The notes beneath the pieces are model-generated. The model saw only the letters and a program-made list of their open reading frames with translations. It ran no database searches and was not told the DNA's origin. This document shows positions 25,533 through 42,947 of a stretch of DNA of 45,710 nucleotides, piece after piece. The first letter of the stretch is position 1; each line of letters begins with the position of its first letter. The stretch lies in the IMG/VR virus record IMGVR_UViG_2526164664_000035. The stretch is one strand, 5' to 3'. Source of the DNA: a virus. Lineage: Duplodnaviria > Heunggongvirae > Uroviricota > Caudoviricetes. The translations under genes and the position numbers were made by a program.

Positions 25533-25575
25533 TGAGGTGTACTGGCAATAGCGGACACTACCATTTGTTCTTTTT

Positions 25576-26394
25576 TTAAGCAGCCATCTGATGATATTTT
25601 TCCCTGAAGGCTGCCGGGGAGATATTCCCCAGACGAGAGTGACGACGCTGACGATTGTAGAAAATCTCAATGTATTCCCGTATTACTGAGATGGCTTCAT
25701 CCCGGTTATTAAAACGATAGTGGCTCAGGCTCTCATTTTTCAGCGTTCCCCAGAAGCTTTCCATCGGAGCGTTGTCGTAACAGTTACCTTTACGCGACAT
25801 TGATGTTTTCAGACCAAACTGCTCCTGTATGACCCGGTAATCGTATGCGCAGTACTGTGAACCTCGATCAGAGTGGTGGATTAGCCCGGCAGGTGGGCGC
25901 TGGCTCCTGAGCGCCATAAACAGAGCTTTACCTGTCAGCTCTTTTGTCATGCGCTCTCCCATGGCGTAGCCGACAATTTCGCACGTATAAACATCTTTGA
26001 TGCCAGCGAGGTACAACCATCCCTCCTGTGTGGCAACATACGTCAGGTCCGCCACCCAGACCTGATTTGGTGCTGTAGGAGCGAACGTCTGGTTCAGCAG
26101 ATTTGGCGCAACTGGCAGATTGTGGTTCGAGTTCGTAGTCGCTCTGAACTTGCGTTTCTGCTTACAGCGTAGCCTTAGCTCCTTACGAAGACGTGCCAGT
26201 CGGTCACGACCAACGATGATGCCATTCTCTGCCAGCTCCGTCTGGAGCCGCCGGGTTCCATATGTTTCGCGAGTGCGGATATGTGCCACCTTAATCTCCA
26301 GTTTTAGCCGCTCATCACTTTGTTTTCTGTCTGAGGGTTCATGCTGTACCCAGTTGTAATAACCGCTCCTGGATACACCAAATACCTGACACAT
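25576..26394 (-). CDS. IS3-family transposase OrfB (DDE catalytic domain)
   Basis: WVADLTYV...HHSDRGSQY...CYDNAPMESFWGTLK DDE motifs; expected to be expressed as an OrfAB fusion by -1 frameshifting. Confidence 0.85.
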   Translation of the reverse strand: MCQVFGVSRSGYYNWVQHEPSDRKQSDERLKLEIKVAHIRTRETYGTRRLQTELAENGIIVGRDRLARLRKELRLRCKQKRKFRATTNSNHNLPVAPNLLNQTFAPTAPNQVWVADLTYVATQEGWLYLAGIKDVYTCEIVGYAMGERMTKELTGKALFMALRSQRPPAGLIHHSDRGSQYCAYDYRVIQEQFGLKTSMSRKGNCYDNAPMESFWGTLKNESLSHYRFNNRDEAISVIREYIEIFYNRQRRHSRLGNISPAAFREKYHQMAA

Positions 26395-26429
26395 CGCTTC
26401 AATGGGAAATTGTTGTCGCCATTGTTCGA

Positions 26430-26732
26430 TTAACGCGTATTTTTCAGCGACTCCTGTGCAAAATACGCTGTTGCTTTTTTTAATATATCTCGCTCAAGGC
26501 GAGCTTCATTTAACGCCTTACGCAGTTGCAGAATTTCAGATTCCAGTTCAGCCACCGTGCGGGAACCAGGAGTACCGAGCCCTTTTCTGGCGGCGGTAAC
26601 CCATTGTCCTAAAGTGCCTTCAGGAAGAGATAATCGGGAAGCGCCTTCACTGATCGAAAGTTGATTTTCAAGAACCGTTCTGACAGCTTCGGCTTTGAAC
26701 TCTTTAGAGTAACGTTGGGTTTTTCTGCTCAT
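26430..26732 (-). CDS. IS3-family transposase OrfA (HTH/leucine-zipper)
   Basis: MSRKTQRYSKEFKAEAVRTVLENQ...ILKKATAYFAQE is typical of IS3-family OrfA. Confidence 0.85.
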   Translation of the reverse strand: MSRKTQRYSKEFKAEAVRTVLENQLSISEGASRLSLPEGTLGQWVTAARKGLGTPGSRTVAELESEILQLRKALNEARLERDILKKATAYFAQESLKNTR

Positions 26733-26970
26733 TATTAGCTCCTTCTGATGCCATTCTATTTCAGGAAGGAGTGTCCGTTAAACTCAGGCTACCTCAAGAT
26801 TCATAAACCAAAAGAGGAAAAATGATGTGGCCTATATGTGTTAATTGCGGACGGATGTGCCTATCTGGATGGTGCCGAAAGTGCGACAAATGCACGAAGA
26901 AAAGACAATAACAATCCTCGCACTGACGGGGATTTCTTTTATCTGAACTCGCTACGGCGAGTTTTGTTTT

Positions 26971-27282: not shown

Positions 27283-27317
27283 GAAGCGCACTCAAGCATC
27301 TTTTGGGGAAATCACAA

Positions 27318-27485
27318 ATGCACTTCCGAGTCACAGGTGAATTGAATGGAGAACCATTCAACAGAGTTATCGAAGCAGAGGACATCAACGACTGCTATGA
27401 CCACTGGATGATATGGGCGCAGATAGCACATGCAGACGTAACCAATATTCGAATTGAAGAACTGAAAGAACACCAAGCCGCCTGA
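27318..27485 (+). CDS. Hypothetical small protein
   Basis: 55 aa from the internal Met MHFRVTGELNG; followed directly by a terminator hairpin. Confidence 0.3.
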   Translation: MHFRVTGELNGEPFNRVIEAEDINDCYDHWMIWAQIAHADVTNIRIEELKEHQAA

Positions 27486-27498
27486 TGGCGGTTTTTTA
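27477..27498 (+). terminator. Rho-independent terminator
   Basis: GCCGCC-TGAT-GGCGG hairpin followed by TTTTTT. Confidence 0.55.
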
Positions 27499-27507
27499 TT
27501 GCCTGAT

Positions 27508-27523
27508 TTGCAGGTTCGATTCC
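27508..27523 (+). other. tRNA T-arm-like 16-mer (TTGCAGGTTCGATTCC), possible att-associated tRNA fragment
   Basis: Contains the GGTTCGATTCC T-loop consensus and matches my memory of the tRNA-Arg(argW) T-arm; not part of a complete tRNA. Confidence 0.3.
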
Positions 27524-27542
27524 CTATTCGGAGATAGCACTC

Positions 27543-27743
27543 ATGCAACACGAACTACAACCTGATTCACTGGTTGATTTGAAATTCATCATGGCTGATA
27601 CTGGCTTTGGTAAAACCTTCATCTACGACCGGATTAAGTCCGGCGACCTGCCTAAAGCCAAAGTTATCCACGGTCGAGCAAGATGGTTATATCGTGACCA
27701 TTGTGAATTCAAAAATAAGCTCTTAAGCCGCGCTAATGGGTAA
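27543..27743 (+). CDS. AlpA/Xis-family DNA-binding protein (putative excisionase or regulator)
   Basis: 66 aa; LVDLKFIMADTGFGKTFIYDRIKSGDLPKAKVIHGRARWLYRD fits the AlpA/phage-excisionase HTH pattern with its conserved Trp. Confidence 0.6.
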   Translation: MQHELQPDSLVDLKFIMADTGFGKTFIYDRIKSGDLPKAKVIHGRARWLYRDHCEFKNKLLSRANG

Positions 27744-27816
27744 AATAGCGGGTAAAATATTTCTCACATCTAAAAAATACCATTCTAATCAATCCCCTGC
27801 CACTCTAAGTAGATGT

Positions 27817-27831
27817 CTGCAGGGGACACCA
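27817..27831 (+). other. att core-like sequence resembling the 3' end of tRNA-Arg (CTGCAGGGGACACCA)
   Basis: 15-nt match to the remembered argW 3' acceptor end including CCA, ~175 bp upstream of the second integrase. The GCAGGGG part also pairs with CCCCTGC at 27794-27800 as a local hairpin. Confidence 0.4.
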
Positions 27832-28006
27832 TGCACACCTCTCCTGAAATCTACCATACCCCACAAAAAGCCTTTATAATCAGCACATACCCTTACTTAT
27901 GTTACTCAAATAGTCGCCTTAATTCTCCTCAGGGGAACGTAAATCAAGTCACATTTGGGGGCCTATTTAGGGGCACATCTTGGTCAATCTATTGCGAGGC
28001 CCCCAG

Positions 28007-29196
28007 ATGCCACTGACAGCTCGACAAGTTGAAACAGCCAAACCCAAAGATAAAATTTATAAGATTGCCGATGGTGGTGGGCTCTACCTTCAGGTCAATC
28101 CTAACGGCTCAAAGTACTGGCGAATGAAGTACCACTATGCGGGGAAGGAAAAGAAACTATCATTTGGCACCTATCCAACTATTACATTGGCTGAAGCTCG
28201 CAAACGTCGGGATGAAGCCAAGAAAATACATGCCGATGGTAAAGATCCCGGTGAAGTCAAGAAAGCTGAAAATCTTGAGAAAAACCTTTCCGAAGGAAGA
28301 ACTTTTGCCGCAATCGCCACCGAGTGGTACAACGCAAAAGTTTCAGGCTGGTCTGCCAGCTACGCTGATTATGTCGACAGAGCATTCAAAAATAATGTGT
28401 TTCCCTACATTGGAAACAGACCCATTAGTGAAATCGAACCTCTTGAACTTCTCGCAGTTCTTCAGCGTATCGAAAGCCGAGGAGCCTGCGAGCTAGCTAA
28501 TAAAGTTCGCCAACGATGTGGTGAAGTGTTTCGGTATGCCATTGTTACAGGTCGGGCACGATACAATCCAGCTTCTGATCTGGTTATAGCAATGAAAAGC
28601 TATAAGCGAACACATTACCCTTTCCTGCTTCCTCCTGAACTACCAGAGTTTTTATACAAACTCGAAAACTAAACCGGCAGTATTGTAACCCGTGAAGCTA
28701 CAAAATTGTTGATGCTCACAGGGCTGAGAACAGTAGAATTACGTATGGGGGAATGGTGTGAGATCGATTTTACCCAAAAGATATGGGAAGTTCCTCCGAC
28801 CCGGATGAAAATGAGGAAGGAGCATATCGTCCCTCTGTCAGATCAGGCAATCCAGTCTCTGCAAATCCTCAAAGAACTGACTGGAAGATACAGATACATC
28901 TTTGCCGGAAGAAATGATGTTAACAGGCCTATCAGCGATGCAAGCGTCAATATGGTTTTGAAGAAGATTGGCTATGACAAAAAGCTACCGGGCATGGATT
29001 TCGTCATACAATGAGTACTGTTCTACACGAGCAAGGATTCAATAGTGCATGGATTGAAATGCAACTTGCACATACGGACAAAAACAGCATTCGTGGTACA
29101 TACAACCATGCTCGTTACCTTGAAGGAAGACGAGAAATGATGCAATGGTACGCTGACTACCTTGATGCTCTTCGAAAAGAGTCACCAGCTATATAA
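28007..29196 (+). pseudogene. P4/IntC-like tyrosine integrase, inactivated by at least two frameshifts
   Basis: Three consecutive ORFs in different frames (28007-28672, 28706-29014, 29011-29196) align end to end with integrase 1: TAKPKDKIYKIADGGGLYLQV... / TGLRTVELRMGEW... / ...YNHARYLEGRREMMQWYADYL. Confidence 0.85.
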
Positions 29197-29863
29197 TCGC
29201 TTGATTTTAAAGGCTGACTTAACGATATCCCCCTGATAGTCATTTATCAGTTATCTAATTATTAAGTCAGCCATAATCCCCTAAGTATCATTCCTTAATC
29301 AGATTCAGCACCTTGTAATACGACCGGTTAATTTAGAAAGAGACGATAGATAAACGCTTATGATGAAATACTAAGAAATTACTTCAGGCTCTATTAACTG
29401 GAGCTGTAATAGACAATAATTTAAATAACGCAATAGTTATATTTATATCTTAATATAAATTTCCACTGTATTTAACGTCCAGGGAGCCATCTTGAAAGGA
29501 TAAAAATTCACATTATCACCATAAAATCACAACGACACCAAAACACATTTCACAACAACACCCTTGCAATAAACCTGTTTTTAACAAAAAATCAAAGACT
29601 GAAAAGAGTTTTGATTCAGAAAACCACATGAGACATGCTTAATATTTTTCAGTTTATCTAAAGGACGCGTTCATCTTTATTACAAAAATATAAGTACACT
29701 GTACTTATTAAACATCCAAAAATCACACCAGTTAATATTTCTTGTATTACTGTAATTTCTGGAAAAATTTCTTCAAAAAAATATAGCATACATATCTTTA
29801 TATGCTATAAAAGATAAGGCAGATTTATAACATACTTGCCTCAATAGAACTATCTAAGGGTTT

Positions 29864-29891
29864 GCCTCCACATATAGTGGAGGCTTTTTTT
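29864..29891 (+). terminator. Rho-independent terminator in the AT-rich ORF-free region
   Basis: GCCTCCAC-ATATAG-GTGGAGGC hairpin followed by TTTTTTT. Confidence 0.5.
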
Positions 29892-30612
29892 ACCCAATAA
29901 CAATATTATTCTGACACTTTATTCCTGTAATCAACAGCAAAAGTATCAAACCAGATGATAATTATTTTCATATTGAGTTTTATCATTCTTTTATATTGTC
30001 AATTCTAATCATAATTTATAATAAATTTTTAATTATTATATTTGCAAAACACAATAATAATAAATTTCTCATTTTTAATTGCAAGTAATATACCTATAAC
30101 ATTTCAAGAATAAACTTTCACAGGTGATTATGACCAATGATATTAACGCCGAACCAAAACACCTACAAAGTAGTAACCAATAATAGGCATGTGACATTAC
30201 TTAACACTGGAATTAAATATCATCACGCAATGTAAATATTTATAAATTAACCAGATTACATTGACCATTTTGTTCAGTTTTATAATTATTCCAATATAAT
30301 GATATTCCAGTGTAAGTAGTTCAGGTTAGTTCATTTGAATTTTATAAGTAGACATGACGAGAAGAAATATGCGTTACTTTTTTATCATTTCTGATCTTAT
30401 TATCTATAAGTCGATCAAAGAAAGATTGATTACTATGAAATTTGATTCATGGAGTGACACATGACAAAGGGGAATATATCTGAAAGAGACTTTGATATCC
30501 TGATCAAGCTATCAGGAATACATAGCGAGAAGGCAATTCTTGCTTTGAAAAAATACTATGTCGATGGGGTCATCAGGAAAATTGATCCTACCCACGTAAT
30601 GTGGACACGGCC

Positions 30613-31456
30613 CTAAGCGAGATTATGGTTTTCAAATTGTTCCGGGCTGAGACCGCCACAGGCACTGTGACGACGCCAGCGATTGTAATCACACTCGATA
30701 TAATTAAACACCGTTGCCCGCATTATTTCCCGGCTGCTAAAGCGTTCCCCGTGGATACATTCCACCTTCAGCGAATGAAAGAAGCTTTCCACACAGGCAT
30801 TGTCATAACAGTAGCCTTTCGCACTCATACTGCCACGCAGGTTGTGTCGCTTCAGCAGCGCCTGATAATCCCCTGAACAGTATTGACCACCACGGTCCGT
30901 ATGAACAATGACGCTTTCCGGGCGTCTTCTCCGCCACAACGCCATTTGTAGTGCATCACAGGCCAGTTGTGCTGTCATTCGCGGTGACATCGACCAGCCA
31001 ATGACGGCGCGTGACCACAGGTCGATGACTACTGCGAGATACAACCAGCCCTCATCGGTACGCAAGTACGTGATGTCACCCGCCCACTTCTGGTTCGGGC
31101 CTCTGGCGCTGAAGTCCTGCTCCAGCAGATTCTCCAATACGGGCAGGCCATGTGCACGGTAGCTGACCGGGCTGAACTTTCGCCCGCAGCCCCTGACGAC
31201 GCAGGCTGGCGGCAATGGTTTTAATATTGAACTCCGGCAGTTCGTCAGCAAGGCGGGGAGCACCGTATCGCTGCTTTGCCTCAAAGAATGCCTTATGGAC
31301 AGCGGCATCGCAGGTGAGCCGAAACTGTTGGCGAAGGCTCATCTGGTGACGACGCCTGAGCCAGACATACCAGCCGCTGCGGGCAACCCGAAGTACACGA
31401 CACATCGCTTTGATGCAGAACTCTGCCCGATGATTTTCGATGAAGACATACTTCAT
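30613..31456 (-). pseudogene. IS3 transposase orfB, split by an internal frameshift
   Basis: The N-terminal part ([13 protein letters not shown]...) and the DDE-containing C-terminal part (...[10 protein letters not shown]...[15 protein letters not shown]) lie in different frames, overlapping at 31076-31308. Confidence 0.75.
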
Positions 31457-31752
31457 TTCAGGCGATTCGCGAAGTATGTCGCGGCCTTTTGGAGGATGGC
31501 CAGTTCCTCAGCCTGCTCCGCCAGTTGTCGTTTAAGGCGGACATTTTCAGCGGCCAGTTCGCTTTCGCGCTCTGACGAACTCATTTGTTGCTGCTGTTTA
31601 CTGCGCCAGGCATAAAGCTGAGATTCATAAAGGCTGAGTTCACGGGCTGCGGCGGCCACACCGATGCGTTCAGCGAGTTTCAGGGCTTCGTTACGAAATT
31701 CAGGCGAATGTTGTTCACGGGGCTTCTTGCTGATTGATACTGGTTTTGTCAT
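31453..31752 (-). CDS. IS3 transposase OrfA
   Basis: [53 protein letters not shown] closely matches remembered IS3 OrfA. Confidence 0.85.
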
Positions 31753-31928
31753 GAGTCACCTCTGGTTGAGAGTTTACTCACTTAGTCCTGTGTCCACTAT
31801 TGGTGGGTAAGATCAGATCAACGAAGAGAAGATCAGCATATATGCACTAGAAACCAAAATATCGAGCCAAGGCAATTGTTAACTTGCGTGGACAGATGCT
31901 CGTTATGTATTAAAATCCCATTGCTTAG

Positions 31929-34289
31929 TCACGAAGATAATGATCGTATGGCTTCCTTAAGGGCTGGTGAGACACGTTGATTAAGTGCTTCATTAGCCCA
32001 GTCGGATTGCACGGGTATTCTACGCAATATCACTGTGTTTAAAGCAGCAAACAAACGATGCAGTAAATGTATAGAACCGGTCGCGATAGCTGTATCCACC
32101 CACTGGTCCGCATAGAGCCATGGGGCTGAAAATAAATCAGCCATCGCCTGAGTAGCAACTTCAATAGACGCTTTTTCTAGGCAAAGAACATCACCCTGAT
32201 CGCCAAAATTATGCTCAAAGTAAGGCAATCCTTCTATATTCGTGCGAATTAGAGGAAATGGGCAGCGCCCAATGCTCAGTAAAATATAGGCGTCTATACG
32301 CTGATCATCGTCACCCACCTCTGCTGACGGCAGTTTCGCTAGTTGCCCGAGTATCATCCAACTGGTTGATTTAGAAATGACCTTTGGGATTTGATCCTCT
32401 AAATTCACCAGAACACTCTTTGCATCATCCCCGTGTTTAGAAATCCACGCTAATCCATCCTCAATCTTTAGATTGACTTGTTGGTTGTCTGGCATGGCTA
32501 AAGTAAACAATCCGTTTTTTATAGGTTCTTTATATGGCTCAATGCTGAGAAGGCCCTGAATAATTCCAAAGCTGAAATATCTCTCTTTAGCTGCCATACG
32601 GCGTATGGCTTGAGCACCGATCATATCTCCAAGATAAGTGGCGTCTAGCCGTTCGCCAAGCCAAGCCCCGGCGTCTTGAGGGTCTTGTTCTGCCCGTAAA
32701 ACCAGTTCATCACAAACAGCATCCGACAGTTCCAGAAGGTAAGCTGCGGGAACTGTCGGCACCACAACATCTTCCCATCCTGAAAGGCGAAAAATACGAA
32801 CTGCCCCCATATGTTTTAACTCATTCACTACACCACGAGCTTCGTCAGAAAGTGCGTCATACCGCACGACAAATCCATTCGCTTTAGCAAACATTAATTC
32901 TACTGAGTGGGAGTTTGTGTCAGCTAGTGCGCAGCGTGCAAGAACCCGATAATAACGAAGAAGATCATACTGACTCTCATAGCTCTTTTGCGCAGCATCT
33001 ATAAGTTCCATACCGGGTGATGGAGGAAGATAGGCGATAAGATCCGTTTTCTGGTATTGATGATTGCGCACAATGTCATCATAAATAGTGCGAAGAACCC
33101 AAGGCGAGCGGTAGTCATCGGCGTATTCTGCTCCCTGTTGAAAAACTATCCGCTGGTCCGAGAGAATCTGTTGCGCCAGCTTAAATTCATCTAGGGACAT
33201 AGGCGATGTTTTAAATACCTTCGACCGGCTACCAATTGCAGACGGAGTTCGTCCGTTTGGATTTTTCAGTAACGCGTTGGCATGATAGGTCGTCAGAACA
33301 ACCACCAGCCTGTTGCCAAAACGTATACCCGCAAGTTCCTCAAGATCAGTAGCCATTTGGGAGCCTGGTTCAACGTCGTCGATAGCAAGCATAAGCGATG
33401 GACCTTCAGTGCAGTTAGACATTCGTCTTAACCAGTTACGTGCATCATTTGAGGTTAAATTCCATTCAAATTCAGCTGCAAAAAGATTGGCCAGAGCCTG
33501 AAATAGTCCTGGTCCGGAACCTCGTAACATCAGGACAGCCAAAAGATCGCTACTTTCCGTTTTTAGCGAAATTTCACGGAGGCAACTGCTTTTTCCGCTT
33601 TGTGCATCACCCTCAATGATAGTGAAAGCTGTACCCATCACAGCAGATTCAATTACAAGAGACGTGATTTTGCGAGGAAAAAGTAGGTTGTTGGCAAATG
33701 GATGTTCTGAATGCCCAGGCTGATCAGTTATATCAATCAGCAGCCGGGCTGTTTCTTCTCGCACAGCTGGCACCCAAGCATTAGTTTCTCGCCCCATCAA
33801 GGCTTCAATAGCCCAGCGCATGTCAGCCGCCGCCAACTTTGCAGAATTGGCGAGCATCTTGTTTACCGCTGCCGAGGCATCCTGTCCACCCGACCACTGT
33901 TGTCCATTACTTGAGTCATAAACGCGCGTATCTTTACCGTTCGTAACTACAACGAGAGGCGGACGTGGTGTTAACTGGTTAGCGTAGCTTTGAGCCTGTT
34001 CATAATCATCATGGGTCAGTGTCAGGTCTTCACGTTTCAGTTCAATAACCGCAAGTGGTCTCTCCCGATGAAAGATCAAAACATCCGCTCGCCCGTATTT
34101 TTTCCAGTGTGCGGCGCTATCTATTTTGTAAGTTCCATGGCCTAGCCGAACGGTAAAATGGCGCTGTTCGATAAGATCTTCGCGAGGAATGTTAGGAAAT
34201 GCTATGTTTAGTGCTGAAGTAAGCCGGCTTTCTAGCTCGGCTTCAGTTCGAACGAGTGGAGAGCCCGTTTTTGATTGCATACTTTTCAT
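31929..34289 (-). CDS. Unclassified nuclease-NTPase fusion protein (N-terminal PD-(D/E)xK-like domain plus P-loop NTPase); candidate defence protein
   Basis: 786 aa. N-terminal ...GRADVLIFHRERPLAVIELKRED (D...E-x-K, HsdR-N/Mrr-like pattern); Walker A GDAQSGKSS; Walker B-like LMLAIDDVE; long C-terminal region without recognisable motifs. GAGGA RBS 9 nt upstream. Confidence 0.55.
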   Translation of the reverse strand: MKSMQSKTGSPLVRTEAELESRLTSALNIAFPNIPREDLIEQRHFTVRLGHGTYKIDSAAHWKKYGRADVLIFHRERPLAVIELKREDLTLTHDDYEQAQSYANQLTPRPPLVVVTNGKDTRVYDSSNGQQWSGGQDASAAVNKMLANSAKLAAADMRWAIEALMGRETNAWVPAVREETARLLIDITDQPGHSEHPFANNLLFPRKITSLVIESAVMGTAFTIIEGDAQSGKSSCLREISLKTESSDLLAVLMLRGSGPGLFQALANLFAAEFEWNLTSNDARNWLRRMSNCTEGPSLMLAIDDVEPGSQMATDLEELAGIRFGNRLVVVLTTYHANALLKNPNGRTPSAIGSRSKVFKTSPMSLDEFKLAQQILSDQRIVFQQGAEYADDYRSPWVLRTIYDDIVRNHQYQKTDLIAYLPPSPGMELIDAAQKSYESQYDLLRYYRVLARCALADTNSHSVELMFAKANGFVVRYDALSDEARGVVNELKHMGAVRIFRLSGWEDVVVPTVPAAYLLELSDAVCDELVLRAEQDPQDAGAWLGERLDATYLGDMIGAQAIRRMAAKERYFSFGIIQGLLSIEPYKEPIKNGLFTLAMPDNQQVNLKIEDGLAWISKHGDDAKSVLVNLEDQIPKVISKSTSWMILGQLAKLPSAEVGDDDQRIDAYILLSIGRCPFPLIRTNIEGLPYFEHNFGDQGDVLCLEKASIEVATQAMADLFSAPWLYADQWVDTAIATGSIHLLHRLFAALNTVILRRIPVQSDWANEALNQRVSPALKEAIRSLSS

Positions 34290-34503
34290 GACAAAGTATC
34301 CTCAGATATTAGTCATTGGCTAAGTTTTTATTTCACTTACTACCTTTCCAGATTAATGCGAAGACGCATAGCATTGGATTAACGGATGTGAAATGGATTA
34401 TTGACAAGCAAAGTAACTTTTTCCGCATAACTATCAATTGATTAGCTGAAGAAAGGGAATATGATTTAGTTCACTCAGGTTTCTCCAGCACGATGTGCAG
34501 ATG

Positions 34504-34784
34504 CTAAAGCCACGATTAATTCTAAAGCAGATTAATATAACCCTGAAACAGGCAGAGCTGGAAACGCCTGTATCGGAAGTATGCCGCATGACCGCCCCCG
34601 ATAACTCACACCGAATGCCAATAGGAATGTCAGCCCCTCGCTCATAGCAGACCTTCGGGCCTGGCAGCTTAGTGCCAAGAACACTCCCCAGTGGCCTATC
34701 GGCAAGTGTAAGCGTACGAATATCGCCTCCGTGCTACACAGTAGACGACTACATTTTCGACGCATGAGCAAATCGTGGCTTTAG
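34504..34784. repeat. 253-bp segment bounded by perfect 14-bp inverted repeats (CTAAAGCCACGATT / AATCGTGGCTTTAG)
   Basis: Inverted repeats at 34504-34517 and 34771-34784, read directly; located in the 643-bp spacer between the membrane-protein gene and the nuclease-NTPase gene. Confidence 0.5.
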
Positions 34785-34932
34785 TTGTCTAAAACCAGTG
34801 CTTCAACACTTTTTTTTCACCAAACAACGCATCGTAGAAGCACTAGTTGGATTCCACAGGCTTACGTAAACAAATAGCGCTAACGGCTAAGCTGGTCCAT
34901 TAGACGCTCAATCATCCTCGCAAGAGGTATAG

Positions 34933-35949
34933 TTACTCGATGCCCAGAACAAATGACATTAACAAATCTAGCTTTATTTTCATGTCTGCAGTTGCCGAAG
35001 CCGCATTAACCTGCGGCAAGGCAAGCCATCTGTTTACGGCATCGGAGTTGAATCTCTGCTGCCTTAGGAACGAAGATACCGACGTTTCCCAGGAAAAGAT
35101 TTCACCCCCACAAAGTTCGACGGGCTGCTGAGAGCAGGCTCGCTGAATAGTCATTCCCAAACCGACGTAGCGGAGAAGCTCACGTCGCACATTCTCATCT
35201 TTTTGCATGACTGGTGCATCCAGTTTCGGTTTCGGTCCAAAGTACACTCCGGTAGTACCTGGTTGTAATGTCGGGTCACTGGAAAAATAAACCGGAACTC
35301 CCATCAATTTAAATGCCGCTGTCAAAATTTCATAACTAATGTCTGATCGACTCCAACGGCCCATGTGGGGTGGTACTTTTGGCAAACCGACCAGATCATC
35401 GCCACGGCTTACAATCGATACCCCCTCAACTGGCACGGATGGTTGCATTCTGAATACAGCGTCAGAATCGATTTCCCAGCCAGCTTCGCTTAACAATCGC
35501 AAAAAATTACCAGCAGCCACGCACGATGATTCACTCCACTCAACACAACCGATGCGCAGCTTGTCCCGCTGACCGAACTGTCCTGTTCGAAATAATTCGA
35601 GGTATCTGTCGCGATTGGAACTATTAACGGCATATGCATCAATCACAGTAGGCGGTACAGGTTTACTTGCAGATTCAGGATTTTGTTGAAGCAAATCTGG
35701 GCTTATGAAAAACACTATAGCGAAGATCGCCACTGCGCCAGATGCTCTTAACCACCCATTAAATTTTACTTCAAGGAAACCAGGCAGAACTGCACCAATA
35801 CATCCGGCAGCCAGAACCAGAACTATTCGGTAAACTATATATTGATAAGGTGTGGGATTGGGGGTTGTGATAGTAGTAATGAGTATGGCAACTATCGCCA
35901 CAACCGCAAAACCATACCTAATGAACTTGTCTGTCCTTACACTGCTCAT
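34933..35949 (-). CDS. Membrane protein of unknown function (three N-terminal TM helices plus ~240-aa soluble domain)
   Basis: 338 aa; hydrophobic segments YGFAVVAIVAILITTITT, IVYRIVLVLAAGCIGAVLPGFL and ASGAVAIFAIVFFISP; co-directional with and upstream of the nuclease-NTPase gene. Confidence 0.5.
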   Translation of the reverse strand: MSSVRTDKFIRYGFAVVAIVAILITTITTPNPTPYQYIVYRIVLVLAAGCIGAVLPGFLEVKFNGWLRASGAVAIFAIVFFISPDLLQQNPESASKPVPPTVIDAYAVNSSNRDRYLELFRTGQFGQRDKLRIGCVEWSESSCVAAGNFLRLLSEAGWEIDSDAVFRMQPSVPVEGVSIVSRGDDLVGLPKVPPHMGRWSRSDISYEILTAAFKLMGVPVYFSSDPTLQPGTTGVYFGPKPKLDAPVMQKDENVRRELLRYVGLGMTIQRACSQQPVELCGGEIFSWETSVSSFLRQQRFNSDAVNRWLALPQVNAASATADMKIKLDLLMSFVLGIE

Positions 35950-36421
35950 TTTAATTTTGACACCTGAATCAAGTCCATAAGTCGAAAATCCCGCATTAAA
36001 CTGCTCCCCAATGATTAATACAGCTTTATACGCGTAATGAGGCTATTGGCGTTGGTGATGAGTGTAACTGTCCATTCCTCGCTCAGAGCAACCTTCTGCT
36101 CCAAGAGTCAGTCTACAGTGTGCAAAAAACAGACGTTGATCACAATATCGAGTTAATCATTCGGCCGTTTATCACTCCCATTGAAAAATTTCTCAGTATC
36201 CAATATACCAATGTTGAGGGCTTCCCTCTTACATCTCAAAAGGATAACTATCATGGGTCTTAAACCTGGTCCAAAACCAATTGCTAAATCGACAGGAAAA
36301 CCAGATCAACGCCGACGAGATAATAAAGATACTCCTGGCAACACTCCGGGACTAAAGCCAAGTAAGTCGTAACCGGCTCATTTAAACCGTCTGGTCTGTT
36401 TCCTCCGGCTCTACAAAAATA

Positions 36422-37099
36422 ATGTCCATCATTTTTAATGGACACTATCGTATGAAACACCGGACCTGGATCACTGAAGCTTTACGTCTTCACTTTGAAG
36501 AACATTTACCCCGGGTTGTGGCCGGGCGTCGCCTGGGTGTACCAAAATCAACAGTTTGTAGTATGTTCGTGCGCTTTCGGAGAGCTGGCCTTTCGTGGCC
36601 TTTGCCCGCAGGCATGTCGGAGCAGGAACTTGATGCCTGCCTTTACGGACAATTTTCCACGGTACCAGTCGTACGTCCTGAAAGCACCGTTATATCCGAA
36701 GCCCCCGTGGTAAAAAAACGTCCCCGGCGGCCCAACTTCCCTTATGAGTTTAAAATCGCCTTAGTGGAGCAGTCACTGCAGCCCGGAGCCTGTGTGGCGC
36801 AGATCGCCCGGGAAAACGGAATCAACGATAACCTGCTCTTCAACTGGCGCCATCAATACCGGAAAGGTGGCCTGCTGCCTTCCGGAAAAAATATGCCGGC
36901 ACTGCTTCCCGTGACGTTAACGCCGGAGCCGGATAATAAAATCCCGGCCCCCGCACAGGAACCAGAGCAGATAAATACACCGTCCGACAGTCTGTGTTGT
37001 GAGCTGGTTCTGCCGGCCGGAACTCTCAGGCTTAAAGGTAAACTGACGCCGGCGTTATTACAGACACTTATCCGCGAAATAAAAGGGAGCAGCCACTGA
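36422..37099 (+). CDS. IS66-family accessory protein TnpA (orf1)
   Basis: First ORF of the IS66-type cassette; HTH-like region. The true start may be the downstream Met (MKHRTW...). Confidence 0.7.
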   Translation: MSIIFNGHYRMKHRTWITEALRLHFEEHLPRVVAGRRLGVPKSTVCSMFVRFRRAGLSWPLPAGMSEQELDACLYGQFSTVPVVRPESTVISEAPVVKKRPRRPNFPYEFKIALVEQSLQPGACVAQIARENGINDNLLFNWRHQYRKGGLLPSGKNMPALLPVTLTPEPDNKIPAPAQEPEQINTPSDSLCCELVLPAGTLRLKGKLTPALLQTLIREIKGSSH

Positions 37100-37446
37100 T
37101 GATATCTCTCCCTGCAGGTTCGCGTATCTGGCTGGTTGCAGGTATCACCGATATGCGAAATGGCTTTAACGGCCTGGCATCAAAAGTTCAGAACGTCCTG
37201 AAGGATGACCCGTTCTCCGGACACCTGTTCATCTTCCGCGGACGCCGGGGTGACCAGATAAAAGTGTTGTGGGCTGACAGTGACGGACTGTGCCTCTTCA
37301 CCAAACGCCTGGAGCGGGGCCGCTTCGTCTGGCCAGTCACCCGTGACGGCAAGGTGCACCTTACTCCGGCTCAGTTATCCATGCTTCTTGAAGGTATCAA
37401 CTGGAAGCACCCGAAACGAACGGAACGCGCTGGAATCCGCATATAA
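37099..37446 (+). CDS. IS66-family TnpB (orf2)
   Basis: 115 aa, MISLPAGSRIWLVAGITDMRNGFNGLASKVQNVLKDDPFSGHLFIFRGRRGDQIKVLWAD, the hallmark IS66 Orf2 sequence. Confidence 0.85.
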   Translation: MISLPAGSRIWLVAGITDMRNGFNGLASKVQNVLKDDPFSGHLFIFRGRRGDQIKVLWADSDGLCLFTKRLERGRFVWPVTRDGKVHLTPAQLSMLLEGINWKHPKRTERAGIRI

Positions 37447-37465
37447 CCCGTTGTAAAGTGAGGAT

Positions 37466-39037
37466 ATGGACACCTCACTTGCTCATGAGAACGCCCGCCT
37501 GCGGGCACTGTTGCAGACGCAACAGGACACCATCCGCCAGATGGCTGAATACAACCGCCTGCTCTCACAGCGGGTGGCGGCTTATGCTTCCGAAATCAAC
37601 CGGCTGAAGGCGCTGGTTGCGAAACTGCAACGTATGCAGTTCGGTAAAAGCTCAGAAAAACTTCGTGCAAAAACCGAACGGCAGATACAGGAAGCACAGG
37701 AGCGAATCAGCGCACTTCAGGAAGAAATGGCGGAAACGCTGGGTGAGCAATATGACCCGGTACTGCCATCCGCCCTGCGCCAGTCTTCAGCCCGTAAACC
37801 GTTACCGGCCTCACTTCCCCGTGAAACCCGGGTTATCCGGCCGGAAGAGGAATGCTGTCCTGCCTGTGGTGGTGAACTCAGTTCTCTGGGATGTGATGTG
37901 TCAGAGCAACTGGAGCTTATCAGCAGCGCCTTTAAGGTTATCGAAACACAACGTCCGAAACAGGCCTGTTGCCGGTGCGACCATATCGTGCAGGCACCAG
38001 TACCTTCAAAACCCATTGCACGCAGTTATGCCGGAGCGGGGCTTCTGGCCCATGTTGTCACCGGGAAATATGCAGACCATCTGCCGTTATACCGCCAGTC
38101 AGAAATATACCGTCGTCAGGGAGTGGAGCTGAGCCGTGCCACACTGGGGCGCTGGACAGGTGCTGTTGCTGAACTGCTGGAGCCGCTGTATGACGTCCTG
38201 CGCCAGTATGTGCTGATGCCCGGTAAAGTCCATGCTGATGATATCCCCGTCCCGGTCCAGGAGCCGGGCAGCGGTAAAACCCGGACAGCCCGGCTGTGGG
38301 TCTACGTCCGTGATGACCGTAACGCCGGTTCACAGATGCCCCCGGCGGTCTGGTTCGCGTACAGTCCGGACCGGAAAGGTATCCATCCACAAAATCACCT
38401 GGCCGGTTACAGCGGTGTGCTTCAGGCCGATGCTTACGGTGGTTACCGGGCGTTATACGAATCCGGCAGAATAACGGAAGCCGCGTGTATGGCTCATGCC
38501 CGGAGAAAAATCCACGATGTGCATGCAAGAGCGCCCACCTACATCACCACGGAAGCCCTGCAGCGTATCGGTGAACTGTATGCCATCGAGGCAGAGGTCC
38601 GGGGCTGTTCAGCAGAACAGCGTCTGGCGGCAAGAAAAGCCAGAGCCGCGCCACTGATGCAGTCACTGTATGACTGGATACAGCAACAGATGAAAACACT
38701 GTCGCGTCACTCAGATACGGCAAAAGCGTTCGCATACCTGCTGAAACAGTGGGATGCACTGAACGTGTACTGCAGTAATGGCTGGGTGGAAATCGACAAC
38801 AACATCGCAGAGAACGCCTTACGGGGAGTGGCCGTAGGCCGGAAAAACTGGATGTTCGCGGGTTCCGACAGCGGTGGTGAACATGCGGCGGTGTTGTACT
38901 CGCTGATCGGCACATGCCGTCTGAACAATGTGGAGCCAGAAAAGTGGCTGCGTTACGTCATTGAACATATCCAGGACTGGCCGGCAAACCGGGTACGCGA
39001 TCTGTTGCCCTGGAAAGTTGATCTGAGCTCTCAGTAA
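37466..39037 (+). CDS. IS66-family transposase TnpC
   Basis: 523 aa with N-terminal leucine zipper ([26 protein letters not shown]), CxxC zinc finger (CPACGG...CCRCDH) and DDE region (LWVYVRDDR...). Confidence 0.9.
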
Positions 39038-39067
39038 ATATCAATACGGTTCTGACGAGTCGCTTAC

Positions 39068-40210
39068 GGTTATCCGGACTGTACGTGAAAAGCATGCCTG
39101 TACTCAGTGCGATGCCATCGTGCAGGCCCCCGCGCCTTCACGGCCCATCGAGCGGGGTATCGCAGGACCGGGGCTGCTGGCCCGCGTGCTGATCTCAAAG
39201 TATGCAGAGCACACCCCGCTGTACCGCCAGTCTGAAATGTACGGCCGCCAGGGCGTGGAGCTGAGTCGTTCACTGCTGTCGGGCTGGGTGGATGCATGCT
39301 GCCGGCTACTGTCACCGCTGGAAGAAGCGCTTCAGGACTATGTGCTGACTGACGGTAAGCTCCATGCTGATGACACGCCTGTCCCGGTGCTGTTGCCAGG
39401 CAATAAGAAAACGAAGACCGGGCGGTTATGGACCTACGTTCGTGACGACCGTAACGCCGGGTCAACGCTGGCGCCGGCGGTGTTGTTCGCTTACAGCCCG
39501 GACAGAAAAGGCATCCATCCGCAGACCCATCTTGCGGGGTTCAGTGGTGTACTGCAGGCGGATGCATACGCCGGGTTCAACGAGCTGTACCGGGATGGCC
39601 GGATAACGGAAGCCGCCTGTTGGGCTCACGCCCGCCGTAAAATCCACGATGTGCACGTTCGCACCCCGTCAGCCCTGACGGAGGAAGCGCTGAAACGGAT
39701 CGGCGAACTGTACGCCATCGAGGCAGAGATAAGGGGAATGACGGCGGAGCAGCGCCTTGCCGAACGTCAGTTGAAAACGAAACCGCTAGCTGAAATCCCT
39801 AGGAAACGCTGGCTGCGTGAAAAGATGAAAACCCTGTCGCGACACTCAGAACTGGCGAAAGCGTTACGCATACGCCCTGAACCAGTGGCCGGCGCTGACG
39901 TACTATGCAGATGATGGCTGGGCTGAGGCGGACAATAACATCGCTGAAAATGCGTTGCGGATGGTCAGTCTGGGCCGCAAAAACTACCTGTTCTTCGGTT
40001 CGGATCATGGAGGAGAGCGGGGAGCGCTGCTGTACAGCCTGATCGGGACGTGCAAACTGAACGGAGTGGAGCCAGAAAGCTACCTCCGCTATGTCCTTGA
40101 CGTCATAGCCGACTGGCCGATAAACCGGGTCGGCGAACTGCTCCCCTGGCGCGTAGCACTGCCGACTGAATAACACATCCCCGTCAATACGGTTCTTGCT
40201 GCACGCTTAC
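39068..40210 (+). mobile_element. 5'-truncated second IS66-family copy (remnant) abutting the first
   Basis: Begins mid-tnpC at a point aligning with ~37934 of copy 1; ends with an IS66-type terminus ...GTCAATACGGTTCTTGCTGCACGCTTAC at 40210. Confidence 0.7.
39120..40173 (+). pseudogene. IS66-family transposase fragment (N-terminally truncated, internal frameshift near 39900)
   Basis: ORFs 39120-39914 and 39955-40173 together align with the C-terminal two-thirds of TnpC ([23 protein letters not shown]...; ...[22 protein letters not shown]). Confidence 0.8.
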
Positions 40211-40613
40211 CAGTAACTTCAGCTACCGTCGTTTCATCTCTCCCACGAACCGGAGCCGCAACTTGTTGCATCACAGGGCTGACAAGTGAACTGAAATCCG
40301 CACCTTAATATTCTGACTGGCTGCGTACATTCATTGCATGAAGCGGCCGGAGCGGCTGAGCTGAAGGTCCGTTGTGAGCGAGAAGCGGAAGTCCGAAATG
40401 GTGCTTATTACTATAGGGGAGTGATCGTCTATCGGGGTGGGGTCAGTCTAATTAACGACCCTGGAGACGTCCAGATTATCCTTAGCGATTCAAACCTTTT
40501 TACGAGACCCAAAGATTTGATACTCAAAATCTCAGACATAAACCATCTAAACATACGGCTTACTATCATGATGATAGGGGAACGGCTAGCAAAGGGTCAA
40601 ATTATCTTGATAA

Positions 40614-40946
40614 CTAATAAAAGTTCTTTACATCCATAAAATCCATGATGTATTTATCTAATCCTTTGCGATTGAAAAAACCGAAACTTTCAAAGTCTTT
40701 TATTATTTTCCAATCACTAAATACGTATGCCAAACATACCAAATGAAGAAATTTCACAGGCATAGTATAATTTGCTATTTCGTAATATCTTTCTTTGTGG
40801 TTTTCTGGGCAAGATTCATTTGTGAATTTAAATAGAATATAAAAACTACGAACCGCAGAAAAGAGAGCCATAGAGGATTCATTATCAAAAATAGAAAATT
40901 GTTTGCATAATTCTTCTGCATTTTTTGACTTACATGAGTTTATCAT
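40614..40946 (-). CDS. Hypothetical protein, last gene of an AT-rich three-gene cluster
   Basis: 110-aa ORF 18 bp downstream of the 2-TM protein gene, same strand, strongly AT-rich; no motif recognised. Confidence 0.35.
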   Translation of the reverse strand: MINSCKSKNAEELCKQFSIFDNESSMALFSAVRSFYILFKFTNESCPENHKERYYEIANYTMPVKFLHLVCLAYVFSDWKIIKDFESFGFFNRKGLDKYIMDFMDVKNFY

Positions 40947-40963
40947 GTAACTCTCTAAATAGG

Positions 40964-41347
40964 TTACCGCATCTGAGGCTGAGTAGTTTTTTTATTTCTA
41001 CCAGTTATTCTGAGGGCATCAAACTCTCTTCTAGATACTTCAGCGAGGCTATAAAACGATGATTCAAAAGAGCGCAAGTCATCAATTTCTTTTTGTCTTT
41101 CTGAAACCTCATGCATGTGCAAATTTTGTTTAATAATGCTGATGTTAGCCTCTTTTTGTAAGTTTATTGATTTAATTAACATAATCATTGTAAAAAATGT
41201 CAAAATGGGGTTGGTTACGCCGCCAACGAAATCACCAAATGTTCCCCATTCAGACTTATCAATTGGAAAACCATTTAACGGATCGAAATTGAAGAAATAA
41301 ATCAACCATGTAACTGATATAACTAAAAAGGCAACATACTTTATCAT
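40964..41347 (-). CDS. Small two-TM membrane protein (candidate membrane effector)
   Basis: 127 aa; two hydrophobic helices (YVAFLVISVTWLIYFF; VGGVTNPILTFFTMIMLI) and a charged C-terminal tail; its start overlaps the stop of the upstream gene. Confidence 0.5.
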   Translation of the reverse strand: MIKYVAFLVISVTWLIYFFNFDPLNGFPIDKSEWGTFGDFVGGVTNPILTFFTMIMLIKSINLQKEANISIIKQNLHMHEVSERQKEIDDLRSFESSFYSLAEVSRREFDALRITGRNKKTTQPQMR

Positions 41348-41348
41348 A

Positions 41349-42167: not shown

Positions 42168-42509
42168 TCTCTAATTCCAAATAAAAACCATGGGTTTAAT
42201 ATGTCCTAATTGATTTGGTTTTGGCAACTATTTTTGATTGTTTTTCAAGAATAATTCGAAAGCTATTAATTAATGGCTGGAACTAATAGGTTCCAGTTTT
42301 CAACTAATCCAGTGACCTGCTCCCCGCTGATCAACTCAGACTGTTGTTAGCAACTTACGCTCCTGGTACGGAGCGGGCATTGATTACCCGCTCCGTTCAC
42401 GTTCCGCCTGGAAGTTCTGCAATTTATGTCTATCGGCTATTGAAAACCTTCCGGTCCTTCCCAATATCGAAACTGGCACCTTTGCCAGATAACAAAGAGA
42501 TACGGGAAC

Positions 42510-42830: not shown

Positions 42831-42947
42831 TCCCTGTACCTGGACAGAAGAGTTTTCTGTCCACAACTACCAATAGCTTTACATAATGTGTGCATCTAAC
42901 TTCAATAAGTTACTTCATTACCAATAATGTCTAAAAAGGAAACGCGC

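What the first reader, a model, noticed from the sequence alone, without database searches (positions are those of the whole stretch)
27477..29196. tRNA-Arg-like 3' fragments at the junction between the prophage and a second, frameshifted integrase
Seen in sequence: TTGCAGGTTCGATTCC (27508-27523) and CTGCAGGGGACACCA (27817-27831) match, from memory, the T-arm and 3' acceptor end of tRNA-Arg (argW, the site I recall Sf6 and the E. coli IntC element using). They flank an AlpA/Xis-like gene and precede integrase 2, which is a homologue of integrase 1 but broken by at least two frameshifts. Inference: two elements were captured in tandem at one tRNA site. The older island lost its integrase; the prophage integrated later, leaving only the short core at its right end. 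The upstream 16-mer is unexplained (longer attP homology, or chance).
Basis: partly seen in the sequence, partly recalled or inferred. Interest (0 to 1): 0.5.

Follow-up and report, generated by a model that had tools for sequence, protein, structure and literature searches.

The report
Prophage end joined to argW island
The two tRNA-Arg pieces are real, but only the second marks the join where a known Sf6/HK620/KplE1-type prophage sits in front of an older island at the argW tRNA gene, which is ordinary biology; the first piece is a conserved short box in front of the phage's excisionase gene, and its role is unknown.

Summary
Both fragments exist as described and match E. coli argW exactly: 27508-27523 is argW nt 46-61 and 27817-27831 is nt 61-75.

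With the next T, the second fragment is the published 16-nt core CTGCAGGGGACACCAT of the IntS/TorI recombination module of KplE1, HK620 and Sf6. Here it is a hybrid site. It is attR of a defective P22-like prophage (intS at 1-1158, torI at 27543-27743). It is also attL of an island whose P4-type integrase (28007-29196) is dead from one nonsense change and one 1-nt deletion, not two frameshifts.

About 200 E. coli genomes have this island fused directly to argW, starting at exactly that core. Three of them already carry the same stop codon and have no phage. Tandem occupancy with the island first is well supported. All of this is known biology.

The upstream 16-mer is neither a junction nor chance. 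It is also present in K-12 KplE1 and in free phage HK620. Its 10-nt centre, GTTCGATTYC, lies 19-22 nt before the excisionase start codon in 74 of 102 loci retrieved by protein similarity alone. These span two excisionase families and several genera. Its function is unknown; a binding site for TorI or for the integrase is my leading guess.

The parts
1..1158 (+). intS, the integrase of the P22-like prophage. This is the attL end. argW and the P' arm lie just upstream of window position 1.
   Evidence: 382/385 aa identical to K-12 IntS and 379/385 to HK620 Int. RefSeq annotates it as intS. It has Pfam Arm-DNA-bind_3, Phage_int_M and Phage_integrase domains. In O26 11368, argW ends 161 nt upstream.
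25533..26796 (-). IS600 copy that replaces about 13.9 kb of the prophage early region (part of the nin region, replication and immunity genes). The prophage in this window is therefore defective.
   Evidence: BLAST of the window against O26 11368: window 9636-25532 matches L001 1-15897 and window 26797-33638 matches L001 29834-36677. IS600 names come (ORFs 25371-25670 and 25576-26394).
27303..27485 (+). Last early-left gene before the recombination module (eaG-like, 60 aa).
   Evidence: It matches phrog_676. Its 3' end plus the terminator is 95-100% identical in P22, lambda-like and Stx phages (most records 97-100%), and that homology stops at 27501-27505.
27475..27499 (+). Intrinsic terminator-like hairpin and T-run just upstream of the torI leader.
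   Evidence: Terminator scan: 8-bp stem with 5 GC pairs followed by a T-run. A hairpin plus T-run sits at this place in nearly all of the 46 IMG/VR leader variants that were selected for carrying the E. coli-type box and leader (the K-12-type hairpin is degenerate).
27508..27523 (+). First fragment, TTGCAGGTTCGATTCC, equal to argW nt 46-61. It is part of the torI leader and is not an att site. The family-wide conserved centre is GTTCGATTCC at 27514-27523, which contains the published TorI-site pentamer GTTCG (27514-27518).
   Evidence: Exact match. The same sequence is upstream of torI in K-12 and HK620. The box is conserved across genera and across two excisionase families. The pentamer is from PMC2951348.
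27530..27533 (+). Shine-Dalgarno sequence GGAG of torI.
   Evidence: Read from the sequence. The column is conserved in the leader alignment.
27543..27743 (+). torI, the excisionase (recombination directionality factor) of the prophage.
   Evidence: 66/66 identical to K-12 TorI and HK620 HkaC and to PDB 1Z4H 'Tor inhibition protein'. It matches phrog_66, 'excisionase and transcriptional regulator'. RefSeq annotates it as torI.
27738..27758 (+). Two GGGTAAAAT repeats (27738-27746 and 27750-27758) in the P arm. These are putative IntS arm-type sites.
   Evidence: Read from the sequence. PMC2951348 states that IntS arm-type sites share the motif TAAA. Assigning these two repeats as arm-type sites is my inference.
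27817..27832 (+). Second fragment plus T: the 16-nt core CTGCAGGGGACACCAT (argW nt 61-75 plus T). It is attR of the prophage and attL of the island, a hybrid junction.
   Evidence: The core is published for KplE1 (PMC2951348). It is the single copy in the window. To its left is the phage P arm, as in K-12 and HK620. To its right is the island arm, which is fused to argW in other genomes.
27833..28006 (+). Island-side arm and upstream region of integrase 2.
   Evidence: It is identical to the sequence that follows argW in strain 14EC033. It is about 80% identical to the argW-proximal end of Klebsiella phage 1 LV-2017.
28007..29196 (+). Integrase 2, a P4-family tyrosine recombinase pseudogene. 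It has a TAA stop at 28670-28672 and a 1-nt deletion in the A-run at 28979-28983.
   Evidence: Only two differences from the intact 396-aa allele of 14EC033. RefSeq marks it as a pseudogene with an internal stop. The intact allele has all the integrase domains.
29197..45710 (.). Left 16.5 kb of the argW island (PapB-like regulator, IS3 and IS66 copies, a protein with an HsdR N-terminal domain, a DUF4365 protein). The island runs beyond the window.
   Evidence: Collinear with O26 11368. In that genome the island ends about 26.7 kb from the core at a third repeat, ATTCCTGCAGGGGACACCA (argW 57-75), which lies outside the window.

Best explanation
The region is the right end of an argW-integrated, P22-like (Sf6/HK620/KplE1-type) prophage joined to an older argW island.

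Shown by others for the identical module: IntS recombines the phage attP core CTGCAGGGGACACCAT with the same 16 nt at the 3' end of argW. This puts intS next to the tRNA gene and torI next to a duplicated core at the far end. TorI together with IntS and IHF reverses the reaction.

Shown here: the duplicated core is at 27817-27832. Everything to its right is an island that lies directly against argW in other E. coli strains. The site is therefore attR of the phage and attL of the island at once. The island's own integrase (47% identical to IntS) is dead from a stop codon and a 1-nt deletion.

Inferred: the island was at argW first, and the phage later integrated into the core copy inside argW, pushing the island downstream. 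Because intS, torI, attL and attR are intact, the now defective prophage (an IS600 replaces 13.9 kb) should still be able to excise. That would restore the argW-island junction.

The upstream 16-mer is not an att scar of this event. It is part of the torI leader and is carried by the free phage. Its centre, GTTCGATTYC, is a box conserved in front of excisionase genes of argW-specific modules.

My best guess for the box is a DNA site for the recombination proteins that controls torI expression. It contains the TorI-site pentamer GTTCG, and it equals the 10 bp of argW that abut the crossover region. It probably descends from an old tRNA fragment.

The confidence of 0.88 is for the att and tandem structure. 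For the proposed function of the box it is about 0.3.
For: - Exact identity of both fragments to argW.
- The 16-nt core and the attL/attR layout are published for KplE1, with HK620, Sf6 and CUS-3 sharing the module (PMC2951348, PMC3509656, PMC8787464).
- IntS is 382/385 and TorI 66/66 identical to K-12. TorI equals PDB 1Z4H.
- In O26 11368, argW, the core, five GTTCG-type sites and then intS precede window position 1.
- In about 200 genomes the sequence from 27817 onward starts exactly at the core inside argW, at 99.8-99.9% identity.
- Three of these genomes, for example 2013C-4187, carry the same internal stop in integrase 2 with no phage.
- A third repeat, argW 57-75, closes the island in O26 11368.
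- For the box: the same 16-mer is in K-12 and HK620. The lambdoid homology to its left ends at 27501-27505.
- GTTCGATTYC is present 19-22 nt before the start codon in 74 of 102 loci retrieved by protein similarity only, in 41 distinct contexts and two excisionase families.
- The TorI pentamer GTTCG is published.
- The attP left half-sites read TTCGATGTA next to TGCAGG in several genera.
Against: For the structure:
- The arrangement alone cannot give the order of arrival. A phage-first history followed by island integration into the phage attR, with later precise phage loss in the three phage-free strains, would give the same sequences. It is only less parsimonious.
- Excision was not observed.

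For the box:
- A single GTTCG is weak evidence for TorI binding.
- The in vitro attR substrate of 135 bp works without the box (PMC3509656).
- 28 of 102 homologous modules, including Erwinia phage 49, lack the box.
- The 5' half of the T-stem is not conserved in many leaders.
- Klebsiella-type leaders differ from the Klebsiella argW T-arm.
- No binding or expression data exist.
Confidence: 0.88

Rival explanations
1. The upstream 16-mer is the remnant of an older attR. On this reading torI and the core belong to a third element or to the island, and the true right end of the phage is at about 27523.
For: The 16-mer and the core tile argW nt 46-75 without loss. This looks like a tRNA 3' part split by a 293-bp insert. 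The mosaic boundary with other lambdoid phages falls just left of the 16-mer.
Against: The arrangement 16-mer, torI, core, intS is contiguous in the free phage HK620 genome and in K-12 KplE1. TorI is the demonstrated excisionase working with IntS (PMC2951348, PMC3509656). Other genera have the box with different flanks, and in Serratia and Pantoea the tRNA-like match runs to nt 63, so the break at nt 61 is not special. No E. coli genome has argW 1-61 fused to the torI leader.
Confidence: 0.04
2. The phage integrated first, and the island later integrated into the phage attR core. The order is the reverse of the reader's.
For: The final arrangement would be identical. The left half-site of the phage attR (TAGATGTC) resembles the attP left half-sites of phages that carry integrase-2-type modules, so the island integrase might have been able to use it.
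Against: The island sits directly at argW in about 200 diverse genomes, against 66 that have phage plus island. Phage-free relatives already have the stop codon in integrase 2. These relatives share the same YfdC protein allele as O26 11368.
Confidence: 0.08
3. The box works as RNA: a T-arm mimic, or an anti-Shine-Dalgarno hairpin (AUUYCC pairing with GGAGAU) in the torI 5' UTR that limits translation.
For: RNAalifold pairs ATTYCC with GGAGAT in 20 diverse leaders. Edwardsiella and Serratia versions can form a full T-arm-like hairpin. In Serratia, TTCCTG can pair with CAGGAG (read from the sequence).
Against: The consensus energy is only -2.3 kcal/mol with one covarying pair. The T-stem is not maintained in most leaders. 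The invariant GTTCGA part is left unexplained. No Rfam family matches.
Confidence: 0.15
4. The 16-mer is part of a cII-activated integration promoter, as annotated in the HK620 record.
For: NC_002730 annotates 'promoter: phage integration' and a cII binding site over this stretch. TTGC-N5-TTGC is present in the window at 27499-27511.
Against: The first TTGC is TTAC in K-12 and in many prophages. Other genera have TTCC or no repeat. No conserved -10 element is present, and the sigma-70 scan finds nothing here. A promoter at this place would make excisionase during lysogenisation. PMC2951348 calls PtorI uncharacterised and shows that intS has its own promoter.
Confidence: 0.07
5. The match of the first fragment to argW is a chance resemblance.
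For: GGTTCGATTCC is a generic T-loop sequence found in many tRNAs (my own knowledge). Only 3-6 further bases are specific to argW.
Against: Shuffles expect 0.06 matches even with 2 mismatches allowed. The fragment lies 293 bp from the core, on the same strand and in tRNA order. The box is conserved at a fixed distance from the start codon across genera.
Confidence: 0.02

Closest known systems
KplE1 (CPS-53) cryptic prophage of E. coli K-12: the IntS/TorI recombination module at argW
   Same: Same 16-nt core. IntS is 99% identical and TorI 100% identical. Same layout, with intS at the attL end and torI at the attR end. Same torI leader, including the 16-mer (PMC2951348).
   Different: In K-12 the attR core is followed by the host dsdC region. 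Here it is followed by a second integrative island. The body of the prophage is a P22-like genome with an IS600 deletion, not the 10-kb KplE1 remnant.
P22-like phages HK620, Sf6, CUS-3 and Kapi1 (argW-integrating, attP between xis and int)
   Same: torI-attP-intS is contiguous and nearly identical in HK620. The virion genes are of P22 type, and an O-antigen acyltransferase lies next to intS. The same attP is reported for Kapi1, Sf6 and HK620 (PMC8787464).
   Different: The window copy is an integrated, IS-damaged prophage.
The variable argW-dsdCXA island region and P4-family integrase islands at argW (for example intC of EDL933)
   Same: A P4-type integrase sits right after argW, the island is bounded by a repeat of the tRNA 3' end, and the cargo is rich in IS elements. 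PMC2951348 names argW-intC as the homologous arrangement in EDL933. The Moritz and Welch 2006 paper on this region is known to me only from the reference list of PMC8787464.
   Different: I did not test identity to intC itself. Here the integrase is a pseudogene and is separated from argW by the prophage.
Lambda attP with Int and Xis
   Same: A tyrosine integrase with arm-type and core-type sites, an excisionase that sets the direction, and duplication of the core on integration.
   Different: attP lies between the excisionase and integrase genes. TorI sites are on the integrase-side arm. intS has its own autoregulated promoter. The target is a tRNA 3' end (PMC2951348).
Excisionases that are also transcriptional regulators (P2 Cox, 186 Apl, P4 Vis; TorI acting on PintS)
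   Same: If the leader box is a TorI operator, torI would join this pattern. TorI repression of PintS through GTTCG sites has been shown (PMC2951348).
   Different: No binding to the torI leader has been shown. There is only one pentamer. Cox, Apl and Vis are recalled from my own knowledge and were not tested here.

Membership tests
IntS/TorI (KplE1-HK620-Sf6) argW recombination module | 16-nt core CTGCAGGGGACACCAT at both prophage ends | tested here: met
   The right copy is at 27817-27832. The left copy is inside argW just upstream of window position 1 in the identical O26 11368 sequence.
IntS/TorI (KplE1-HK620-Sf6) argW recombination module | IntS-type integrase next to attL | tested here: met
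   382/385 identical to K-12 IntS. Integrase domains are present.
IntS/TorI (KplE1-HK620-Sf6) argW recombination module | TorI excisionase next to attR, transcribed toward the core | tested here: met
   66/66 identical to TorI, HkaC and PDB 1Z4H. The stop codon is 73 nt before the core.
IntS/TorI (KplE1-HK620-Sf6) argW recombination module | TorI sites (GTTCG, GATCG, GTCCG) and IntS arm-type TAAA sites on the attL arm | tested here: met
   This arm is outside the window. In O26 11368 (L002 3706-3865) the five pentamers and the GGGTAAAA-type repeats read as in K-12.
IntS/TorI (KplE1-HK620-Sf6) argW recombination module | Excision and integration activity | not testable with these tools
   This needs PCR or sequencing of attP and attB products. 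Activity has been shown for K-12 KplE1 (PMC2951348).
tRNA gene (tRNA-Arg CCU) | Complete cloverleaf with anticodon | tested here: not met
   ARAGORN finds no tRNA in the window. Rfam has no hit at the gathering threshold or at E<=10 in 27300-28100. Only nt 46-61 and nt 61-75 are present, and they are split.
P4-family tyrosine integrase (integrase 2) | Arm-binding, central and catalytic domains in one open reading frame | tested here: not met
   The intact allele has all the domains. The window copy has a stop at codon 222 and a frameshift at about codon 325.
Tandem integrative elements at one tRNA gene | A repeat of the tRNA 3' end at every junction | tested here: met
   The repeats are at argW, 27817-27832, and a third copy (argW 57-75) at the far end of the island in O26 11368, outside the window.
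Tandem integrative elements at one tRNA gene | Each element found alone at the same site in other genomes | tested here: met
   The island is alone at argW in about 200 genomes. The IntS element is alone at argW in K-12.
Leader box as TorI operator or integrase half-site (proposed) | Protein binding to the box and an effect on torI expression | not testable with these tools
   Only sequence evidence exists: the GTTCG pentamer, identity to argW 52-61, and conservation in 74 of 102 loci.
Structured RNA element in the torI leader | Conserved base pairs with covariation | tested here: inconclusive
   The RNAalifold consensus is -2.3 kcal/mol, with 8 pairs of which 1 shows a compensatory change.

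The most novel reading that the evidence does not exclude
The T-loop-like box GTTCGATTYC, kept 19-22 nt upstream of the excisionase start codon in two diverged families of argW-specific recombination modules, may be a functional copy of the tRNA half-site next to the crossover point. Through it, the integrase or the excisionase itself would control excisionase expression. The box would then be the missing control element of the so far uncharacterised torI promoter and leader, and so of the decision to excise.
Probability: 0.3. Interest if true: 0.45.

Novelty: already known. Interest (0 to 1): 0.22.

Why it matters
The main feature gives a clean, base-exact map of a tandem array at argW in O26-type E. 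coli: which repeat is which att site, which integrase is dead, and what excision should produce. This helps with annotation and with predicting prophage mobility, but it adds no new principle.

The one open point is the conserved box in front of torI. Published work states that excision of this prophage family is governed by excisionase expression and that the torI promoter is uncharacterised. A 10-nt element that has outlasted most of the divergence of the excisionase protein is a concrete place to look for that control.

Tried and rejected
- **tRNA gene or known RNA family.** Neither ARAGORN nor Rfam, at the gathering and E-value thresholds, found anything.
- **Longer tRNA homology upstream of torI.** 46 distinct IMG/VR variants never extend past argW nt 46. 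No contig has the E. coli leader without the preceding C.
- **Deletion derivatives between the two 16-nt direct repeats (argW 1-61 fused to the torI leader).** Found in 0 of 5426 complete E. coli genomes.
- **The break at nt 61 as an integrase cleavage scar.** I dropped this idea because Serratia and Pantoea leaders continue to nt 63 and other leaders diverge earlier.
- **The box as a fresh copy of the local tRNA.** The Klebsiella argW T-arm equals that of E. coli, but Klebsiella-type leaders differ from it.
- **Generalisation to other tRNAs.** I scanned for other T-loop variants followed by a Shine-Dalgarno sequence and an ATG. None of the first 120 matches had an excisionase-like ORF.
- **RNA structure.** Single-sequence folds are inconsistent and the consensus fold is weak.
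- **Sigma-70 promoter at the box.** None was found.
- **Pfam and NCBIfam for TorI.** No hit at 1e-3. Identity was settled by PDB and PHROGs instead.
- **Key papers.** Panis 2007 (JBC) and Panis 2010 (Virology), which map the att protein sites, are not held in the library.
Full report
**What is in the sequence**

The window starts at the ATG of an integrase gene (1-1158). It carries a P22-like prophage on the minus strand, with tailspike, DNA-injection proteins, coat, portal, terminase and lysis genes. A few short plus-strand genes then end at 27485.

The finding covers what comes next:
- a terminator-like hairpin at 27475-27494, followed by a T-run;
- the 16-mer TTGCAGGTTCGATTCC at 27508-27523;
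- a 66-codon gene at 27543-27743;
- the 15-mer CTGCAGGGGACACCA at 27817-27831;
- a broken integrase gene at 28007-29196.

No tRNA gene or Rfam family is present anywhere in the window.

**Checking the observation**

The window is 100% identical over this region to E. coli O26:H11 chromosomes such as strain 11368. In that genome and in K-12, argW reads GTCCTCTTAGTTAAATGGATATAACGAGCCCCTCCTAAGGGCTAATTGCAGGTTCGATTCCTGCAGGGGACACCA.

The two fragments are exact copies of nt 46-61 and nt 61-75. They are the only exact matches of 12 nt or more between argW and the window. Each occurs once, even with two mismatches allowed, against 0.03 and 0.06 matches in shuffles.

**The second fragment is a known att core and a hybrid junction**

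With the following T, it is CTGCAGGGGACACCAT. This is the 16-nt core published as the duplicated boundary of the KplE1 (CPS-53) prophage. The recombination module of that prophage (attL, intS, torI, attR) is shared with HK620, Sf6 and CUS-3 (PMC2951348 and PMC3509656) and with Kapi1 (PMC8787464).

- Integrase 1 is IntS, 382/385 identical to K-12.
- The small gene is torI, 66/66 identical to K-12 TorI, HK620 HkaC and PDB 1Z4H. It matches phrog_66.
- In O26 11368, the sequence just upstream of window position 1 is argW, then the core, then the integrase-side arm with the five published TorI pentamers and the TAAA arm-type repeats.

To the left of 27817 the sequence is the phage arm, as in K-12 and HK620.

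To the right it is something else. In about 200 complete E. coli genomes, the stretch from 27817 onward is fused directly to argW at 99.8-99.9% identity, and the homology starts exactly at the first base of the core. So 27817-27832 is attR of the phage and attL of an island at the same time.

In O26 11368 the island ends about 26.7 kb further on, at a third repeat, ATTCCTGCAGGGGACACCA (argW nt 57-75). That repeat lies beyond the end of this window.

**Integrase 2**

It is 47% identical to IntS. The intact allele (396 aa, strain 14EC033) has the arm-binding, central and catalytic domains of P4-family integrases.

From the core to 29300, the window differs from that allele at only two places:
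- C>A at 28672, which changes TAC to TAA;
- loss of one A from the A-run at 28979-28983.

That is one nonsense mutation and one frameshift, not two frameshifts.

**Order of events**

The arrangement alone would fit either order. Two observations favour the island arriving first:
- The island alone at argW is widespread, whereas the phage-plus-island junction is found in 66 genomes.
- Three phage-free genomes, for example 2013C-4187, have argW fused to an integrase 2 that already carries the same internal stop but not the frameshift. An island with a dead integrase cannot have integrated afterwards.

The alternative is that the phage was lost from those three strains by precise excision. This is possible but less parsimonious.

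The prophage here is defective. An IS600 copy (25533-26796) replaces 13.9 kb of the early region that is present in O26 11368. Its intS, torI, attL and attR are nevertheless intact, so excision remains plausible, as it is for KplE1. This is an inference.

**The first fragment is not a junction**

The same 16-mer, with the same 19-nt spacer to the torI start codon, is present in K-12 KplE1 and in the free phage HK620. It therefore belongs to the phage and was not created by integration in this strain.

To its left, the end of the eaG-like gene and its terminator are 95-100% identical in P22, lambda-like and Stx phages (most records 97-100%). That homology stops at 27501-27505. The fragment is thus the first feature of the recombination module.

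Among 46 distinct IMG/VR variants, the tRNA match never extends past nt 46. Erwinia phage 49 has torI, the core and intS but lacks the fragment. No E. coli genome has argW 1-61 fused to the torI leader.

**The first fragment is the local form of a conserved box**

I retrieved excisionase loci by protein similarity only, so the search was blind to the DNA motif:
- TorI relatives from one genome per species gave 24 loci, of which 22 have enough upstream sequence to score.
- Relatives of a second excisionase family gave 80 loci from viral contigs. This family starts MRELRDDSL, is clearly diverged from TorI (alignment score 128 against 354 for TorI itself) and also matches phrog_66. It is paired with integrase-2-type arms and the same argW core.

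Of these 102 scored loci, 74 carry GTTCGATT[C/T]C 19-22 nt before the start codon, in 41 distinct contexts. One locus has a decayed copy. The rest have a leader about 25 nt shorter, with no trace of the box.

The flanks vary: TTGCAGG in E. coli, and TTCCAGG, TTACAGG, TGACAGG, CCAAG, CTCAG and CCCTG elsewhere. The 10-mer does not vary. It equals argW nt 52-61.

From the inverted repeats around the core in attP (GATGTC or GGTGTC, then TGCAGGG, then GACACC), I infer that the crossover region is TGCAGGG, nt 62-68. On that reading, the box is the 10 bp that abut the crossover region in the tRNA gene. The box also contains GTTCG, the pentamer that defines the published TorI sites.

The Klebsiella argW T-arm is the same as that of E. 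coli, while Klebsiella-type leaders differ from it. The box is therefore not a recent copy of the local tRNA.

**What the box might do**

- RNA structure is not supported. Single-sequence folds disagree with one another. The consensus fold is -2.3 kcal/mol with one covarying pair; it pairs ATTYCC with the Shine-Dalgarno GGAGAT.
- A promoter is not supported. The sigma-70 scan finds none here. The cII site annotated in the HK620 record is not conserved.
- The box is not needed for excision in vitro, because the published 135-bp attR substrate excludes it.

The most economical reading is a DNA site for TorI or for the integrase that modulates torI expression, probably descended from an old tRNA fragment. 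PMC2951348 describes the torI promoter as uncharacterised. This reading is an inference with a probability of about 0.3.

A limited attempt to find analogous boxes with other T-loop sequences in front of excisionase genes found none.

**Comparison with what is known, and verdict**

The att core, the IntS/TorI module, argW as a hot spot, and tandem islands at tRNA genes are all established. The array itself is present in published, annotated O26 genomes.

Its details on the first fragment and on the integrase lesions are wrong.

The finding is ordinary and already known. The only unexplained and possibly new point is the conserved T-loop-like box in the excisionase leader.

Noticed in passing
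window 27514-27523; loci L133-L143 and L234-L313: The box GTTCGATT[C/T]C (equal to argW nt 52-61) is conserved 19-22 nt upstream of excisionase start codons in 74 of 102 loci retrieved by protein similarity alone. These span two diverged excisionase families and several genera. Versions without the box have a leader about 25 nt shorter.
   Followed up: partly
window 25533-26796: An IS600 copy replaces about 13.9 kb of the prophage early region (part of the nin region, replication and immunity genes) that is present in O26:H11 11368. The prophage in this window cannot be a functional phage.
   Followed up: partly
window 33636-33638, compared with L001 36678-37987: O26 11368 has a 1.3-kb IS3-family insertion that splits an island gene. 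In the window that gene is intact as a 785-aa ORF (31929-34289, minus strand) with an HsdR N-terminal-like domain.
   Followed up: no
window 43721-44575 (minus strand): An island ORF (annotated DUF4365) gives a weak PADLOC match to an Argonaute-associated REase-like model (E = 5e-12 over about 100 residues). Neighbouring ORFs have no family match. It could be a defence gene.
   Followed up: no
window 27440-27505: The end of the eaG-like gene and its terminator are 95-100% identical in P22 (where the place is annotated as the aI RNA terminator), lambda-like, HK022 and many Stx phages (most records 97-100%). The homology ends abruptly 3-7 nt before the 16-mer, giving a sharp mosaic boundary.
   Followed up: partly
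L128 8542-8560 (O26 11368, outside the window): A third direct repeat, ATTCCTGCAGGGGACACCA (argW nt 57-75), closes the island after a yeeU-type antitoxin gene. Beyond it lie the csc sucrose genes and a truncated dsdX.
   Followed up: partly
phage records LC645409 and others: Many Stx2a phages annotated as argW-integrated carry a duplication of argW nt 1 to about 63-69, not the 3' end. A different phage family therefore uses the same tRNA gene with a different crossover region.
   Followed up: no
window 1403-2545 (minus strand): An acyltransferase gene lies next to intS, as in the O-antigen-modifying phages of the Sf6 group. This suggests a seroconverting prophage.
   Followed up: no
loci L134 and L151: TorI-type loci with enterobacterial leaders appear in metagenome-assembled genomes labelled Actinomycetes and Parachlamydiaceae. 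These are most likely contaminating contigs in those bins.
   Followed up: no
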